From positions 98,724 to 162,723 of the forward strand of contig SUUK01000002.1 of the NCBI GenBank assembly GCA_015062535.1: DNA of 64,000 bases. Direction: 5' to 3'. Position 1 is the stretch's first letter, and every line of letters begins with the position of its first letter. The stretch is from Alphaproteobacteria bacterium (lineage in GTDB: Bacteria; Pseudomonadota; Alphaproteobacteria; RF32; CAG-239). Below the pieces are notes generated by a model. The model worked only from the letters and a program-made list of their open reading frames with translations, had not been told where the DNA came from and searched no databases. A program made the translations under genes and the position numbers. Shown piece by piece: positions 26,071 through 30,187 of this stretch.

Positions 26071-26460
26071 ATGCCTAGGTACGGAGATAAAACCCAAAAG
26101 GAACTTGATAATTATATAAAAGATTATAAGTTACCAGTTGGACGTGTAAGAACAGGTTTGGTTGCGCCAATTAAGGATTTGAGTCGTAATTATTTTACAA
26201 TGAAAGAAAAACAATTGGATCCAAGCGATCATTTTTTTCATTGTAAGGCTAATTATGAAGCTGCTTCAAGAGGAGCTTATGGAGAAGCAGTGGCTGAAAA
26301 ATTTGGTTATATAAAAGAGCGTTTTGATATGCTAGTCAAAGGTGATAGCAGGGGAGCTTCTGAAGCTGATTTAAGAGCAAATGCAAGAGGTCGTGCAGGT
26401 GCAAAAGCAGGAAAGTCTCTACGAGAAACATGTCCGACGCATCATACAAAATATAAATAA
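26071..26460 (+). CDS. serum amyloid A (SAA) domain protein, bacterial homolog
   Basis: 129 aa; SDHFFHCKANYEAASRGAYGEAVAE ... SEADLRANARGRAGAK ... TKYK aligns with vertebrate SAA [25 protein letters not shown] ... SLADQAANEWGRSGKD ... EKY. Confidence 0.7.
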   Translation: MPRYGDKTQKELDNYIKDYKLPVGRVRTGLVAPIKDLSRNYFTMKEKQLDPSDHFFHCKANYEAASRGAYGEAVAEKFGYIKERFDMLVKGDSRGASEADLRANARGRAGAKAGKSLRETCPTHHTKYK

Positions 26461-27067: not shown

Positions 27068-27427
27068 TCATTTGCGGGGGGAAACAAAACTTTTTAGAAT
27101 TATTTCTCCGTTACTTTTTTTTGTGTAGCTAACAACGTCACCTTCTTTTATGGCACATGCGAAAGATGTTTCAATAGAGTCCGTTTCTTTGAAAATATCG
27201 CCATTTTCAAATATGAGAACTGTTCCACTCTGATTACAATAACCGCCTGTGTTTATAAGATATCGACCAGTTCGAATAACTTTTGATGTTATGGTGGTGT
27301 CATTTTTGGGGTGTGTAGCGCCATAACAAGGAGAGTCTTCAGCTACGCATATGTAACTGCTAAGTGACATAGACATAATAGCCAGGCAAACAGCAATAGC
27401 TGTTTTGTAAAAGATTGTTTTTTTCAT
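27068..27427 (-). CDS. hypothetical secreted protein
   Basis: 119 aa; signal peptide MKKTIFYKTAIAVCLAIMSMSLSS; terminator hairpin aggtgctc/gagcacct at about 27040..27064. Confidence 0.45.
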   Translation of the reverse strand: MKKTIFYKTAIAVCLAIMSMSLSSYICVAEDSPCYGATHPKNDTTITSKVIRTGRYLINTGGYCNQSGTVLIFENGDIFKETDSIETSFACAIKEGDVVSYTKKSNGEIILKSFVSPRK

Positions 27428-27602
27428 ACTTTTGGTGGTTTAGAATAATTGACAATGTAGTTTTTTGTTTGTGTCTATCATAGCGTATTTTTTTGTCTAT
27501 TACAAGTATTTTTTTTATAAAAATGATTTTAAAAATTCTATGGTTTACTTTATTGTATAATGGTTATATTGTGAGGATATATTTTAATAAGAGGAGAAAT
27601 TT

Positions 27603-28406
27603 ATGCCTACAATACATTTAATGGTTGGTTTTATTGGGTTTGGTAAAACAACAATTGCCAAAGAAATTGAAAGTAAGTTTTCGGCTATTCGTTTTACTCA
27701 TGATGATATTATGCTTGAGAGATATGGGCGTAATCCTGATGATTTTCAGACAAAGTTTAATATAGTTGATGATTATATTAGAAATGAAGCCCAAAAATAT
27801 ATTAAGATGGGGAAAGATGTTATTTTAGATTATGGCTTTTGGTCTCATGATAAGCGTGATGAATATTATAAGTGGGCAAAAGGACTTACTAAAGATGTGG
27901 TTTTTCATGTTGTTTTATGTGATATTAAGGAGGCAAAACGAAGGGTTTTAAGTCGCACAGAAAATGATGATAAAGCTCTTTTGATTGATGAGGGTATTTT
28001 TGATGCTTTGTTAAAACAATATGAACCATGGTATTTTATGGATGATTATCCTGTTGTTTTTCATAATGTAGAGAATAATAAATATATTGGTCAAATTGTT
28101 AAGGTTAAGATTGATAGACCAAAGGGGAGTAAACACCCTAAGTATGGGTTTGAGTATTTGGTTAATTATGGTTATGTACCATATACTAAATCTCAAGATG
28201 GTGAAGAATTAGATGCTTATGTTTTGGGGTTTGATGAGCCTTTAGATGAGTTTGAAGGGCGCTGTATTGGTGTTATTAGACGAATTGATGATAATGATGA
28301 TAAGTTAATAGTTGTTCATGAAGCAATAGATTTAGCTGATGAGCAAATTGAAGAAGAGATAGAATTTCAGGAAAAATGGTTTAAGCATATTTTGTTGAGA
28401 GAGTAG
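27603..28406 (+). CDS. fusion protein: N-terminal P-loop kinase (AAA_33/zeta-toxin-like NTP-binding) + C-terminal inorganic pyrophosphatase-like domain
   Basis: GFIGFGKTT Walker A; C-terminal KVKIDRPKGSKHPKYGFEY...NYGYVPYT...DGEELDAYVLG...IGVIRRIDDNDDKLIVV parallels PPase blocks EIPKGSRNKYE...NYGFIP.T...DGDPLDVLV...IGVLKM.DE.GEDDKIIAV. Confidence 0.55.
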   Translation: MPTIHLMVGFIGFGKTTIAKEIESKFSAIRFTHDDIMLERYGRNPDDFQTKFNIVDDYIRNEAQKYIKMGKDVILDYGFWSHDKRDEYYKWAKGLTKDVVFHVVLCDIKEAKRRVLSRTENDDKALLIDEGIFDALLKQYEPWYFMDDYPVVFHNVENNKYIGQIVKVKIDRPKGSKHPKYGFEYLVNYGYVPYTKSQDGEELDAYVLGFDEPLDEFEGRCIGVIRRIDDNDDKLIVVHEAIDLADEQIEEEIEFQEKWFKHILLRE

Positions 28407-28479
28407 GTTATTAGATAAAATATATATTTGTGATATATTTTTTAAAGTTTTTTGTAACAAAATTCTCTTTCTATTGTTA

Positions 28480-28666
28480 GAGAGAGGTCGGCATCATGTT
28501 TGTATCCCGTTAAAAGAGGTTTTAACTGAGGAGGATACAGTCCCGACCGAAAAGGGGCGCATGGTGCTATATGTTAGGTCTGTTCTAGATTGGTGGGTTT
28601 AACCTCTTTACCATCAACTTAGTATGGACCATAGTATGACGGAGGCTTTTGGCCTCCTTTTTTTTG
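28480..28666 (+). ncRNA. candidate structured small RNA ending in intrinsic terminator (identity unknown)
   Basis: 340-nt ORF-free gap upstream of kdsB; long-range pairing aggtcgg...ccgacc, GC content above local background, terminal ggaggc TTTTG gcctcc hairpin + T8 at 28641..28666. Confidence 0.3.
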
Positions 28667-28744
28667 TTTAATATTAAAAAAATCTTTTCTTTTACATAAA
28701 ATTGTGTTATATGGAAGGCATTGTAACAAAAGAAAGGATTTGAT

Positions 28745-29578: not shown

Positions 29579-30187
29579 TTAGACTGTTAGAACAACTTTT
29601 TTGCGGTTGAAACGTTTAGCGTTTCGTTGGTAGGTTTTGTAGACTATATCTACATCTTGGAAGTTTGCAAAACCTATCCAATGCCAGCTGTTGTGAATTT
29701 TGCCAATTTTACCACCATACTTTTGGCGAAGGATTGTGCAAGCCTTGAAGCTACCAATGTAGGCTATTCTTCCATTTTGGGTGCAACCGTATCTGATATC
29801 TCTTGTGATTGTTTCTGCAAAGTTTAGTACCGCATCTTCAAGGTCATCAAGAGGGACACTGATAACGAGGTTTTTCTTTGGATTGGCAACGATTTTGGTG
29901 ATGTCTGTTGAGAGAGCATAACCTATCCAGTACCAAACATTGCTTATTGCACCGATTTGACCATCAAAAGTATTTTTTAGGTTTTTGCATTGTTTGTAGG
30001 TGCCAATGTATGCAGATGGGGTGTTGCGACCGGTCACAATTATTGTGCCGAAAGCGATAGAGTTGCTTATCATTGCGACAACTTCTTCTATATCGTCAAC
30101 CTCTGATTTTTGGTCAATGTTTTTAAACCACTTTAAGTAGGCGTTGTCTAATTGTTGCAAAAGTTGATCTTTTCTTTTTTGTTCCAT
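29579..30187 (-). CDS. hypothetical protein with internal tandem duplication
   Basis: 202 aa; repeats SAYIGTYKQCKNLKNTFDGQIGAISNVWYWIGYA and IAYIGSFKACTILRQKYGGKIGKIHNSWHWIGFA. Confidence 0.45.
   Translation of the reverse strand: MEQKRKDQLLQQLDNAYLKWFKNIDQKSEVDDIEEVVAMISNSIAFGTIIVTGRNTPSAYIGTYKQCKNLKNTFDGQIGAISNVWYWIGYALSTDITKIVANPKKNLVISVPLDDLEDAVLNFAETITRDIRYGCTQNGRIAYIGSFKACTILRQKYGGKIGKIHNSWHWIGFANFQDVDIVYKTYQRNAKRFNRKKVVLTV

What the first reader, a model, noticed from the sequence alone, without database searches (positions are those of the whole stretch)
27603..28406. P-loop kinase fused to an inorganic-pyrophosphatase-like domain
The N-terminal 150 aa (MVGFIGFGKTTIAKE...) look like an AAA_33/zeta-toxin-type NTP-binding kinase. 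The C-terminal 115 aa reproduce family-I PPase core blocks (KIDRPKGSKHPKYGFEY, NYGYVPYT, DGEELDAYVLG, IGVIRRIDDNDDKLIVV). This is an unusual fusion, and neither half has an obvious neighbouring partner. It could be a nucleotide-modifying or pyrophosphate-coupled salvage enzyme, or a toxin-like NTPase.
Basis: partly seen in the sequence, partly recalled or inferred. Interest (0 to 1): 0.55.

Follow-up and report, generated by a model that had tools for sequence, protein, structure and literature searches.

The report
PNK-like kinase fused to minimal pyrophosphatase
A gut alphaproteobacterium encodes a real, well-conserved enzyme that joins a polynucleotide-kinase-like ATP-dependent kinase to a stripped-down inorganic-pyrophosphatase domain; this domain type was described by computer analysis in 2017 but has never been studied at the bench, so the gene is a sound candidate for biochemistry, not a new kind of system.

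Summary
ORF 27603-28406 (+) encodes 267 aa: an AAA_33 P-loop kinase (residues 1-155) and a 108-aa family I pyrophosphatase-like domain (159-266). Both pass Pfam thresholds, and the AlphaFold model is very confident (pLDDT 96.8).

The PPase half keeps the metal-binding aspartates, Y55 and K104 (E. coli numbering). It lacks the beta-hairpin carrying E31/R43 and has no Y141/K142. That matches the hairpin-less "InPase" clade described computationally by Iyer et al. 2017, which has no reported biochemistry.

The fusion is not unique. Hundreds of orthologues occur in uncultured gut and rumen Alphaproteobacteria. The same kinase occurs alone, as kinase-PPase, PPase-kinase, kinase-PPase-NUDIX or kinase-NUDIX, with at least 19 architecture changes on the kinase tree. 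A 95%-identical kinase in a sister genome lacks the PPase module.

One relative also encodes a canonical PPase nearby, so the module is accessory, not housekeeping. There is no toxin-antitoxin or defence signature.

The most likely function is a kinase plus a Mg-dependent P-O-P hydrolase acting on nucleotide-like or nucleic-acid-end substrates. The substrates are unknown.

The parts
27592..27596 (+). Shine-Dalgarno sequence AGGAG, 6 nt upstream of the ATG
   Evidence: Read directly from the sequence.
27603..28406 (+). Complete gene for the kinase/mini-PPase fusion protein (267 aa plus stop codon)
   Evidence: ORF list and translation. The identical protein is found on at least 23 contigs. 569 homologues were found.
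27603..28067 (+). N-terminal P-loop kinase domain (residues 1-155), AAA_33 / PNK-PSTK-like. Walker A is G9-FIGFG-K15-T16. Putative catalytic base is D34, Walker B is D76, and the lid arginines are R114 and R118.
   Evidence: Pfam AAA_33, E=3.4e-17. K15, D34, D76, R85, C106, R114, R118 and P142 are invariant in a 24-sequence kinase alignment. Profile vs PDB: PSTK 1.6e-7, Pnkp1 1e-5, PNKP 1.8e-3, T4 PNK 3.5e-3. PHROG 'polynucleotide kinase' 8.6e-11. Foldseek matches PNKP and PFKFB3, and viral matches are mostly polynucleotide kinases.
27627..27653 (+). Walker A / P-loop (GFIGFGKTT, residues 9-17)
   Evidence: Read from the sequence. G9, G12, G14, K15 and T17 are invariant or at least 90% conserved.
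28077..28400 (+). C-terminal minimal (hairpin-less) family I pyrophosphatase-like domain, residues 159-266. Proposed equivalents in E. coli numbering: D171 (E20), Y189 (Y55), D199 (D65), E201 (D67), D204 (D70), D230 (D97), D232 (D102), K234 (K104). R172, H178 and R227 are invariant only in this family.
   Evidence: Pfam PF00719, 39.9 bits. PDB PPase hits. Conservation over 114 representatives. hhalign to E. coli PPase gives probability 94.7%. The model's secondary structure has no hairpin between strands 165-172 and 188-192. Foldseek matches family I PPases.
28641..28665 (+). The only predicted intrinsic terminator downstream on the + strand (GGAGGC-TTT-TGGCCTCC followed by T8). It probably ends the transcript, or it ends a separate small RNA.
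   Evidence: Terminator scan and the sequence itself.

Best explanation
The gene encodes an accessory, non-housekeeping, two-activity enzyme.

Shown: residues 1-155 are an intact ATP-dependent P-loop phosphotransferase of the AAA_33 / polynucleotide-kinase / PSTK class, with Walker A K15, an invariant Asp34 at the position of the catalytic base, Walker B D76 and lid arginines R114/R118. A linker of about 3 residues joins it to a 108-aa minimal family I pyrophosphatase domain. That domain keeps the complete acidic metal-binding cluster (D199, D204, D230, D232, plus D171 and E201), together with Y189 and K234.

Inferred: the kinase phosphorylates a hydroxyl group on a nucleotide-like substrate or on a nucleic-acid 5' end. 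The PPase domain uses Mg2+-activated water to cleave a P-O-P bond, most simply inorganic pyrophosphate. It works in the same pathway as the kinase and as the NTP-pyrophosphohydrolases (NUDIX of MutT/NudG type, MazG-like) that are fused to or adjacent to the orthologues in related genomes, and it makes that pathway irreversible.

The three activities (kinase, PPase, NUDIX) are autonomous modules. Evolution joins and separates them freely, which fits independent catalytic steps on related substrates better than an obligate single machine.
For: The PPase half is under stronger constraint than the kinase half: 71% vs 59% mean pairwise identity among 89 orthologues.

Several results support a functional link between the two modules. 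The fusion exists in both orders, kinase-PPase and PPase-kinase. In L067 and L069 a stand-alone mini-PPase gene is divergently adjacent to a kinase-only gene. Unrelated P-loop kinases are independently fused to the same module (P0166, P0262, P0129). pTM 0.92 indicates a defined inter-domain packing.

Several results link it to PPi-releasing enzymes. 13 of 83 distinct loci carry kinase-PPase-NUDIX and 3 carry kinase-NUDIX. NUDIX is the commonest partner of the module family-wide, in 21 of 82 multidomain representatives. NUDIX (12 loci), MazG-like (5 loci) and GNAT-NUDIX genes are recurrent neighbours. The NUDIX domains score best, though below cutoff, against MutT/NudG/NudI NTP diphosphatases.

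The accessory role rests on two observations. L026 has a canonical 205-aa PPase about 6 kb from its fusion gene. L041 has a 95%-identical kinase with no PPase module.

The same two alternatives, PPi clearing or cleavage of a nucleotide-like phosphoester, were proposed for this domain clade in PMC5512222.
Against: There is no biochemical evidence for any member.

A kinase does not produce PPi. In this window there is no NUDIX or MazG gene nearby and no NUDIX remnant, so a source of PPi in cis is missing for the commonest two-domain form.

The domain lacks R43, Y141 and K142, and probably E31 and a conserved K29. In canonical PPases these bind the leaving-group phosphate (established knowledge of E. 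coli and yeast PPase). That questions PPi as the substrate.

The kinase substrate is unassigned. No NCBIfam family passes its cutoff, and similarity to PNK and PSTK is remote (17-20% identity).

Gene neighbourhoods are poorly conserved, and the gene looks monocistronic here.
Confidence: 0.5

Rival explanations
1. The mini-PPase does not act on free PPi. It removes a terminal phosphate, or cleaves the P-O-P bond, of an organic polyphosphate such as an NDP/NTP-like nucleotide or a 5'-tri/diphosphorylated RNA end. The remodelled leaving-group pocket (R172, H178, R227) would accommodate the larger leaving group. Together with the PNK-like kinase, and the NUDIX domain where present, it would convert heterogeneous 5' ends or nucleotides into the monophosphate form.
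For: The leaving-group-site residues R43, Y141 and K142 are lost, while the metal cluster and Y55/K104 are kept. Three new residues (R172, H178, R227) are invariant only in this family. Most fusion partners do not release PPi: kinases, GNAT and 2H/LigT phosphoesterases. The kinase's best relatives act on nucleic-acid ends or tRNA: PNK, Pnkp1, PNKP and PSTK. Iyer et al. also proposed a nucleotide-like substrate.
Against: There is no direct evidence. The N-terminal strand aligns ambiguously, so the assignment of K29 and E20 is uncertain. Model coordinates could not be inspected. NUDIX and MazG partners do release PPi, so the simpler reading is sufficient.
Confidence: 0.27
2. The PPase-like domain is catalytically silent. 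It serves as an oligomerisation scaffold, since family I PPases are trimers or hexamers, or as a PPi/phosphate-sensing regulatory domain for the attached enzymes.
For: The domain is attached to a very heterogeneous set of partners: NUDIX, GNAT, kinases, 2H, LMWPc, aminotransferase and peptidase S51. That pattern is typical of scaffolding or regulatory modules. It can be gained or lost without loss of the kinase.
Against: Every metal-binding Asp, Y55 and K104 are 94-100% conserved across 114 representatives at 50% clustering. That pattern is expected for catalysis, not for a scaffold. Stand-alone 110-130 aa versions are common.
Confidence: 0.08
3. The P-loop domain is a kinase/phosphorylase in the manner of HprK/P or PPDK regulatory protein. 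It would dephosphorylate its target with Pi and produce PPi, and the fused PPase would pull that reaction.
For: This would explain why a PPase is fused directly to a kinase with no other PPi source. From established knowledge, HprK/P forms PPi, and the B. subtilis hprK operon carries the pyrophosphatase gene ppaX.
Against: The kinase shows no sequence or fold similarity to HprK/P or PDRP. Many orthologues work without the PPase. The idea is purely analogical.
Confidence: 0.05
4. It is a zeta-toxin-like toxic NTPase/kinase, or a component of an anti-phage defence system or phage polyvalent protein.
For: There is a marginal Pfam Zeta_toxin hit (24.6 bits, gathering score 22.3). The InPase clade was first described in phage polyvalent proteins. 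The locus is variable between close relatives.
Against: The Zeta hit lies under the much stronger AAA_33 hit. There is no co-directional small antitoxin-like gene: the upstream gene is on the opposite strand and the intergenic gap is 175 bp. PADLOC finds no hit for the window protein. PHROGs hits cover only the kinase half, as 'polynucleotide kinase'. Only 4 of 50,697 phage records carry a similar mini-PPase. The flanking genes are chromosomal housekeeping genes (kdsB, adk, AcrB).
Confidence: 0.03
5. The C-terminal domain is simply the organism's housekeeping inorganic pyrophosphatase, and it happens to be fused to a kinase.
For: Source annotations call stand-alone members 'inorganic pyrophosphatase'. 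No canonical ppa gene is present in the 64-kb window.
Against: L026 encodes a canonical 205-aa family I PPase (41% identical to E. coli Ppa, E=1.5e-29) next to its own fusion gene. The sister genome L041 lacks the module at this locus. Parsimony needs at least 11 gain/loss events on the kinase tree. NCBIfam PPase equivalogs score 32 bits against a cutoff of 246.
Confidence: 0.03

Closest known systems
Hairpin-less type I 'InPase' domains (Iyer, Burroughs, Anand, de Souza, Aravind 2017, J Bacteriol, PMC5512222; Pfam PF18823 for the phage branch)
   Same: It has the OB-fold family I PPase core without the beta-hairpin between core strands 1 and 2. The acidic metal-binding residues are conserved. 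It is fused or adjacent to NUDIX and GNAT domains and linked to a P-loop NTPase (TmrB in actinobacteria). No biochemistry has been reported.
   Different: This domain scores below the PF18823 threshold (14.8 vs 26.8 bits) and above the PF00719 threshold. It is chromosomal in gut Alphaproteobacteria, not in phage polyvalent proteins. The direct fusion to a PNK/PSTK-like AAA_33 kinase, in both orders, is not mentioned in that paper.
Canonical family I soluble inorganic pyrophosphatase (E. coli Ppa; Pfam PF00719)
   Same: The fold matches (Foldseek E about 1e-6). Motifs NYG(Y/F), DG(D/E)xxD and D..DxK are present, with equivalents of Y55, D65, D67 (as Glu), D70, D97, D102 and K104.
   Different: It is about 108 aa against about 175. 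It lacks the hairpin carrying E31/R43, lacks Y141/K142 and lacks the C-terminal helix. It has new invariant residues R172, H178 and R227. It is dispensable and modular, and it coexists with a canonical PPase in L026.
Bifunctional polynucleotide kinase-phosphatases (T4 Pnk/PseT, mammalian PNKP, bacterial Pnkp1)
   Same: A P-loop kinase of the same fold class, with an Asp general base and lid arginines, is fused in one polypeptide to a metal-dependent phosphohydrolase. These are the best phage-family and structural matches for the N-domain.
   Different: The hydrolase here is an OB-fold PPase-like domain, not a HAD or calcineurin-type phosphatase. Sequence identity is only 15-20%. A polynucleotide substrate has not been shown.
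6-phosphofructo-2-kinase/fructose-2,6-bisphosphatase (PFKFB)
   Same: An AAA_33-class kinase domain is fused to a phosphohydrolase domain. Foldseek E is about 2e-6 for the kinase half.
   Different: The hydrolase fold differs (histidine phosphatase). There is no evidence for sugar-phosphate substrates or for antagonistic regulation.
L-seryl-tRNA(Sec) kinase PSTK / KTI12
   Same: This is the best profile-to-PDB match for the whole kinase domain (3adb, E=1.6e-7, residues 4-140). There is also a Pfam KTI12 hit at 25.8 bits.
   Different: The C-terminal tRNA-binding domain of PSTK/KTI12 is absent. The organism is a bacterium with no selenocysteine context here.

Membership tests
Family I soluble inorganic pyrophosphatase (PF00719) | Score above Pfam's gathering threshold | tested here: met
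   39.9 bits against a gathering score of 23.5, E=4.8e-10. 77 of 82 multidomain relatives also match.
Family I soluble inorganic pyrophosphatase (PF00719) | Full-length domain (about 153 profile positions, including the beta2-beta3 hairpin and the C-terminal helix) | tested here: not met
   Only profile positions 30-111 of 153 are matched. The domain is 108 aa. The model shows no hairpin between strands 165-172 and 188-192 and no helix after strand 262-265.
Family I soluble inorganic pyrophosphatase (PF00719) | Metal-binding aspartates D65, D70, D97 and D102 (E. coli numbering) | tested here: met
   D199 is 99% conserved, D204 98%, D230 94%, and D232 is D or E in 100% of 114 representatives. 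Alignment to E. coli PPase is.
Family I soluble inorganic pyrophosphatase (PF00719) | Complete set of phosphate-binding residues K29, R43, Y55, K104, Y141, K142 | tested here: not met
   Y189 (Y55) and K234 (K104) are conserved. R43 falls in the deleted segment. The positions aligned to Y141 and K142 are I263 and L264, which are variable or hydrophobic in the family. The candidate K29 equivalent, K180, is only 61% conserved.
Family I soluble inorganic pyrophosphatase (PF00719) | NCBIfam equivalog score for inorganic diphosphatase | tested here: not met
   NF002578 gives 32 bits against a cutoff of 246. NF002317 gives 24 bits against a cutoff of 200.
Family I soluble inorganic pyrophosphatase (PF00719) | Mg2+-dependent hydrolysis of PPi | not testable with these tools
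   This needs an enzyme assay.
Hairpin-less InPase clade (PMC5512222; Pfam PF18823) | [quoted passage not shown] | tested here: met
   The secondary structure of the model. Alignments to PDB PPases and to E. coli PPase show a gap of about 17-20 residues there.
Hairpin-less InPase clade (PMC5512222; Pfam PF18823) | Association with NUDIX, GNAT and P-loop NTPase domains or genes | tested here: met
   Partner counts are NUDIX 21, GNAT 9 and AAA_33 7 of 82 representatives.
Hairpin-less InPase clade (PMC5512222; Pfam PF18823) | Score above the PF18823 gathering threshold | tested here: not met
   14.8 bits against a gathering score of 26.8, E=0.026. Only 4 of 82 relatives match at E<=1e-3. It therefore belongs to the 'related InPase domains' of the paper, not to the phage branch that the Pfam model captures.
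Hairpin-less InPase clade (PMC5512222; Pfam PF18823) | Location in phage or prophage polyvalent proteins | tested here: not met
   The context is chromosomal (kdsB, adk, AcrB). No PHROG matches the PPase half. Only 4 phage records carry a similar domain.
AAA_33 / polynucleotide-kinase-like P-loop kinases | Pfam AAA_33 above threshold, with an intact Walker A GxxxxGK[ST] | tested here: met
   63.5 bits against a gathering score of 27. The motif G9-FIGFG-K15-T16 is present and K15 is invariant.
AAA_33 / polynucleotide-kinase-like P-loop kinases | Catalytic Asp after strand 2 (T4 Pnk D35 equivalent) and lid arginines | tested here: met
   D34, R114 and R118 are invariant in 24 diverse kinase domains. 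Equivalence to T4 Pnk D35 and R126 is inferred from position (motif THD vs NRD), not from a printed alignment.
AAA_33 / polynucleotide-kinase-like P-loop kinases | Phosphorylation of 5'-OH polynucleotide ends | not testable with these tools
   Only remote similarity is available: PHROG 505 at 8.6e-11, Pnkp1 at 1e-5, T4 PNK at 3.5e-3. The substrate needs an assay.
Zeta toxin (PF06414) toxin-antitoxin kinases | Specific family match | tested here: inconclusive
   24.6 bits against a gathering score of 22.3, but over the same residues as the much stronger AAA_33 hit.
Zeta toxin (PF06414) toxin-antitoxin kinases | Adjacent co-transcribed epsilon-type antitoxin gene | tested here: not met
   The upstream neighbour (27068-27427) is on the opposite strand. 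The 175-bp gap holds no plausible co-directional ORF, only a 42-aa TTG-start ORF overlapping the gene's start. PADLOC finds nothing.

The most novel reading that the evidence does not exclude
The minimal PPase domain is not an inorganic pyrophosphatase. It is a polyphosphate-end phosphohydrolase whose remodelled leaving-group pocket accepts a nucleic-acid or nucleotide 5' tri/diphosphate. With the PNK-like kinase (5'-OH to 5'-P), and with the RppH-like NUDIX domain where fused, it forms a modular '5'-end normalising' enzyme that turns any RNA 5' end into a monophosphate. In that case this domain family would be a candidate for the still-unidentified activity that converts 5'-triphosphate RNA to the diphosphate form upstream of RppH. 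That this activity is unidentified is my own recollection of the literature and was not checked here.
Probability: 0.1. Interest if true: 0.75.

Novelty: new member of a known kind. Interest (0 to 1): 0.42.

Why it matters
The minimal family I pyrophosphatase module is abundant. The whole two-domain query drew 2,365 cluster representatives at E<=1e-3, and most of the 150 listed match its PPase half. The module is strongly conserved and is attached to many nucleotide-handling enzymes, yet no member has been assayed. This gene and its relatives provide a natural experiment: the same kinase occurs with and without the module, in both orders, and with or without NUDIX. That could reveal what the module hydrolyses and why kinases and NUDIX hydrolases keep recruiting it. 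If it cleaves something other than free PPi, that would extend the catalytic range of one of the best-studied enzyme folds. It would also improve annotation in uncultured gut and rumen Alphaproteobacteria, where these proteins are labelled only 'AAA family ATPase' or 'inorganic pyrophosphatase'.

Tried and rejected
- **NUDIX remnant or separate NUDIX gene in the window:** tblastn with three NUDIX tails found nothing better than E=0.14.
- **Known RNA downstream:** Rfam at gathering score and at E<=1 found nothing.
- **Defence-system membership:** PADLOC gave no hit for the window protein.
- **Phage origin:** PHROGs hits cover only the kinase half, and tblastn of the mini-PPase against 50,697 phage records found 4 weak hits.
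- **Specific enzyme assignment via NCBIfam:** nothing reached a cutoff for the kinase, the PPase or the NUDIX domains.
- **Conserved gene neighbourhood as a functional clue:** clustering 752 neighbouring ORFs gave no cluster present in more than 12 of 83 loci. The clusters shared with the window (AcrB, Abhydrolase_2) look like lineage synteny, not an operon.
- **SemiSWEET and PRPP-synthetase neighbours (L005/L006) and NadD/NadE neighbours (L001):** these suggested a vitamin/NAD salvage link, but they are not conserved across loci.
- **Literature:** searches for a characterised kinase/PPase/NUDIX enzyme found none.
- **Housekeeping-PPase reading:** rejected because of L026 and L041.
Full report
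**1. The observation**

The ORF at 27603-28406 (+) is real. It has an ATG start and encodes 267 aa, with an AGGAG ribosome-binding site 6 nt upstream.

Pfam assigns residues 5-142 to AAA_33 (E=3.4e-17, 63.5 bits against a gathering score of 27). It assigns residues 181-259 to Pyrophosphatase PF00719 (E=4.8e-10, 39.9 bits against 23.5). Sequence searches of the PDB return only family I PPases for the C-terminal part.

An AlphaFold2 model built on a 100-sequence alignment has mean pLDDT 96.8 and pTM 0.92. Foldseek matches the C-terminal domain to family I PPases, and the N-terminal domain to PNKP, PFK-2 and UMP-CMP kinases, all at E of about 1e-6.

The identical protein is encoded on at least 23 metagenome contigs in the same gene context. 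It is a stable gene of a common organism, not an artefact.

**2. The kinase half**

Walker A is G9-FIGFG-K15-T16. D34 sits in the motif T-H-D, at the position of the catalytic base of polynucleotide-kinase-type enzymes. Walker B is D76. R114 and R118 are the lid arginines. All of these are invariant across 24 diverse members.

A profile of the domain finds the following in the PDB:

| PDB entry | Protein | E-value |
|---|---|---|
| 3adb | PSTK (L-seryl-tRNA(Sec) kinase) | 1.6e-7 |
| 4xrp | bacterial RNA-repair Pnkp1 | 1e-5 |
| 3u7g and others | mammalian PNKP | 1.8e-3 |
| 1ltq | T4 polynucleotide kinase | 3.5e-3 |

The best phage family is 'polynucleotide kinase' (phrog_505, E=8.6e-11). The viral structure matches are dominated by PseT-type kinases. 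No NCBIfam model comes near its cutoff.

The domain is therefore an intact hydroxyl-phosphorylating kinase of the PNK/PSTK/AAA_33 class. Its substrate is unknown.

**3. The PPase half**

Residues 159-266 form a five-strand barrel plus one helix and a final strand. I examined 114 cluster representatives of this module and aligned them to E. coli PPase.

Retained positions:

| E. coli position | Window residue | Conservation |
|---|---|---|
| Y55 | Y189 | 98% |
| D65 | D199 | 99% |
| D67 | E201 | Glu in 81% |
| D70 | D204 | 98% |
| D97 | D230 | 94% |
| D102 | D232 | D or E, 100% |
| K104 | K234 | 100% |
| E20 (probable) | D171 | 96% |

Missing features:
- The beta-hairpin that carries E31 and R43 is absent.
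- Y141 and K142 align with variable, hydrophobic positions.
- The C-terminal helix is absent.
- The register of the first strand is ambiguous. D171 aligns with E20 in the phmmer alignment to 5tea and with D33 in hhalign. The secondary structure of the model and the published description favour E20.

R172, H178 and R227 are invariant in this family and are not part of the canonical active site.

From established knowledge of E. coli and yeast PPase, the retained residues build the metal cluster and the site for the attacked phosphate. The lost residues hold the leaving-group phosphate. The catalytic machinery therefore looks intact, but the leaving-group pocket has been rebuilt.

Among 89 orthologues the PPase half is more conserved than the kinase half: 71% against 59% mean pairwise identity.

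**4. What is already known**

Iyer et al. 2017 (PMC5512222, section 'The InPase domain') described type I InPase domains that lack this hairpin.
- They found them mainly in phage polyvalent proteins.
- They noted that related versions are fused to or adjacent to NUDIX and GNAT domains, and are linked in actinobacteria to the P-loop protein TmrB.
- They proposed either cleavage of a nucleotide-like substrate or clearing of PPi.

The paper does not mention polynucleotide-kinase-like fusions. I found no biochemical study. The window's domain scores below the Pfam InPase (PF18823) threshold, at 14.8 against 26.8 bits. It belongs to the 'related' cellular branch.

**5. Distribution and modularity**

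The word-indexed search found 569 homologues. The best 120 all share the architecture at 53-99% identity, and about a quarter of them carry an extra C-terminal NUDIX domain with an intact Nudix box.

The exhaustive search of 1.84 billion representatives found 2,365 hits. It shows the 108-aa module alone (110-135 aa) and at either end of many proteins. It also shows the kinase alone, at 157-171 aa.

Among 82 multidomain representatives, the partners of the module are NUDIX (21), GNAT (9), AAA_33 kinases (7), 2H/LigT phosphoesterases (3-4), NTPase_1, AAA_28 and others. Unrelated P-loop kinases are independently fused to it: P0166, P0262 and P0129.

A scan of species-representative genomes returned 80 loci, almost all from uncultured gut and rumen Alphaproteobacteria. 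The 83 distinct loci are those 80, the window and two loci from contig look-ups. Their architectures are:

| Architecture | Loci |
|---|---|
| kinase alone | 29 |
| kinase-PPase | 24 |
| kinase-PPase-NUDIX | 13 |
| PPase-kinase | 12 |
| kinase-NUDIX | 3 |
| kinase with a divergent stand-alone mini-PPase gene | 2 |

- Some kinase-PPase-NUDIX forms carry a second NUDIX domain and a GNAT domain, up to 751 aa in L028.
- On a neighbour-joining tree of the kinase domain, parsimony needs at least 19 architecture changes. At least 11 of them fuse or unfuse the PPase, and at least 8 involve NUDIX.

The closest genome, L041, has a 95%-identical kinase that stops at residue 160. DNA homology with the window runs over 27615-28084 (94.7%) and resumes at 28676 (92%). 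The block holding the PPase module and a structured non-coding element is replaced in L041 by a stop codon, a terminator and a small membrane ORF on the opposite strand.

**6. Context**

In the window the gene is flanked by an opposite-strand lipoprotein-like ORF upstream and by kdsB downstream. The only downstream + strand terminator is at 28641-28665. There is no NUDIX remnant.

In relatives the recurrent neighbours are small NUDIX genes (12 loci), a second small P-loop kinase (9 loci), a MazG-like pyrophosphohydrolase (5 loci), GNATs, and a GNAT-NUDIX protein whose gene overlaps the kinase start. No neighbour is universal.

L026 encodes a canonical 205-aa family I PPase (41% identical to E. 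coli Ppa, E=1.5e-29) about 6 kb from its own fusion gene. Together with L041, this shows that the mini-PPase is an accessory module and not the cell's housekeeping PPase.

**7. Mechanism**

Shown:
- an intact kinase active site;
- an intact metal-binding hydrolase site;
- strong purifying selection on both halves;
- repeated, order-independent fusion of the two modules, and of each with NUDIX.

Inferred, as the best explanation (confidence about 0.5): the protein couples an ATP-dependent hydroxyl kinase acting on a nucleotide-like or nucleic-acid-end substrate with a Mg-dependent P-O-P hydrolase. The hydrolase most simply removes PPi produced by the NUDIX and MazG-type NTP pyrophosphohydrolases of the same toolkit.

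The main rival (about 0.27) is that the rebuilt leaving-group pocket means the substrate is an organic polyphosphate, not PPi. Two facts favour this rival: a kinase itself makes no PPi, and most partners of the module do not make it either.

Minor rivals, each argued against in the rival list, are:
- a non-catalytic scaffold or sensor;
- an HprK/P-like kinase/phosphorylase;
- a zeta-type toxin or defence component;
- a housekeeping PPase.

**8. Novelty and interest**

Both domains belong to known kinds. The minimal PPase clade and its tendency to join nucleotide-processing domains were described computationally in 2017.

New here are the direct fusion to a PNK/PSTK-like kinase, its abundance in gut and rumen Alphaproteobacteria, the occurrence of both domain orders, and the very rapid gain and loss of the module.

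I rate it a new member of a known kind, of moderate interest (0.42). Its value is as a tractable entry point to the biochemistry of an abundant, unassayed enzyme module.

Noticed in passing
window 28466-28672 (+): An intergenic element between the fusion gene and kdsB, visibly richer in G+C than the flanking intergenic DNA. It folds strongly (MFE -73.7 kcal/mol, z=-4.9 against 200 shuffles) and ends in a clean intrinsic terminator at 28641-28665. It has no Rfam match at gathering score or at E<=1, no tRNA or tmRNA, and no homologue in the 86 loci fetched by then. It is absent from the near-identical locus L041. It may be an unannotated small RNA or a structured 3'UTR.
   Followed up: partly
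window 26071-26460 (+): A 129-aa ORF matches Pfam SAA (serum amyloid A), E=7.4e-17, 62 bits against a gathering score of 30.8. This is a family best known from vertebrates, here in a gut alphaproteobacterium. The same ORF is called on the 309-kb JGI contig.
   Followed up: no
window 28085-28675 vs L041 1639-2160: Between two genomes about 92-95% identical in the flanks, the block holding the mini-PPase module and the RNA-like element is replaced by a stop codon, a terminator and a 109-aa membrane ORF on the opposite strand. The breakpoint lies exactly at the kinase/PPase domain boundary. Sequence upstream of 27615 is also non-homologous.
   Followed up: yes
L028 8001-10256 (+): A single 751-aa ORF joins five domains: kinase, mini-PPase, NUDIX, a second IDI-like NUDIX and GNAT. 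A GNAT-NUDIX gene overlaps its start, and a second P-loop kinase gene and a NUDIX gene follow it. It resembles a chromosomal 'polyvalent' array of house-cleaning-type enzymes.
   Followed up: partly
L026 14902-15519 (-): A canonical full-length family I PPase (205 aa, 41% identical to E. coli Ppa) lies about 6 kb from that genome's kinase/mini-PPase fusion gene.
   Followed up: yes
L001 4930-5985 (+), and the same gene in L009, L011, L012, L013 and L044: A 351-aa protein with no Pfam match, containing an HEGTH (HExxH-like) motif, ends 15-16 nt before the kinase start codon in six loci of one clade and may be co-transcribed with it. In L001 a 438-aa gene with no precomputed Pfam hit precedes it.
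   Followed up: no
L005 5717-5980 and L006 524-787 (+): An 87-aa SemiSWEET/PQ-loop transporter gene lies directly upstream of a kinase-PPase-NUDIX gene, with a PRPP synthetase gene next to it in L005. This hints at uptake followed by phosphorylation, but the arrangement is not conserved in other loci.
   Followed up: no
window 29579-30187 (-): A 202-aa ORF with no Pfam match appears to contain two similar halves (...AYIGTYKQCKNLKNTFDGQIGAISNVWYWIGYA... and ...AYIGSFKACTILRQKYGGKIGKIHNSWHWIGFA...). This suggests an internal duplication in an uncharacterised protein.
   Followed up: no
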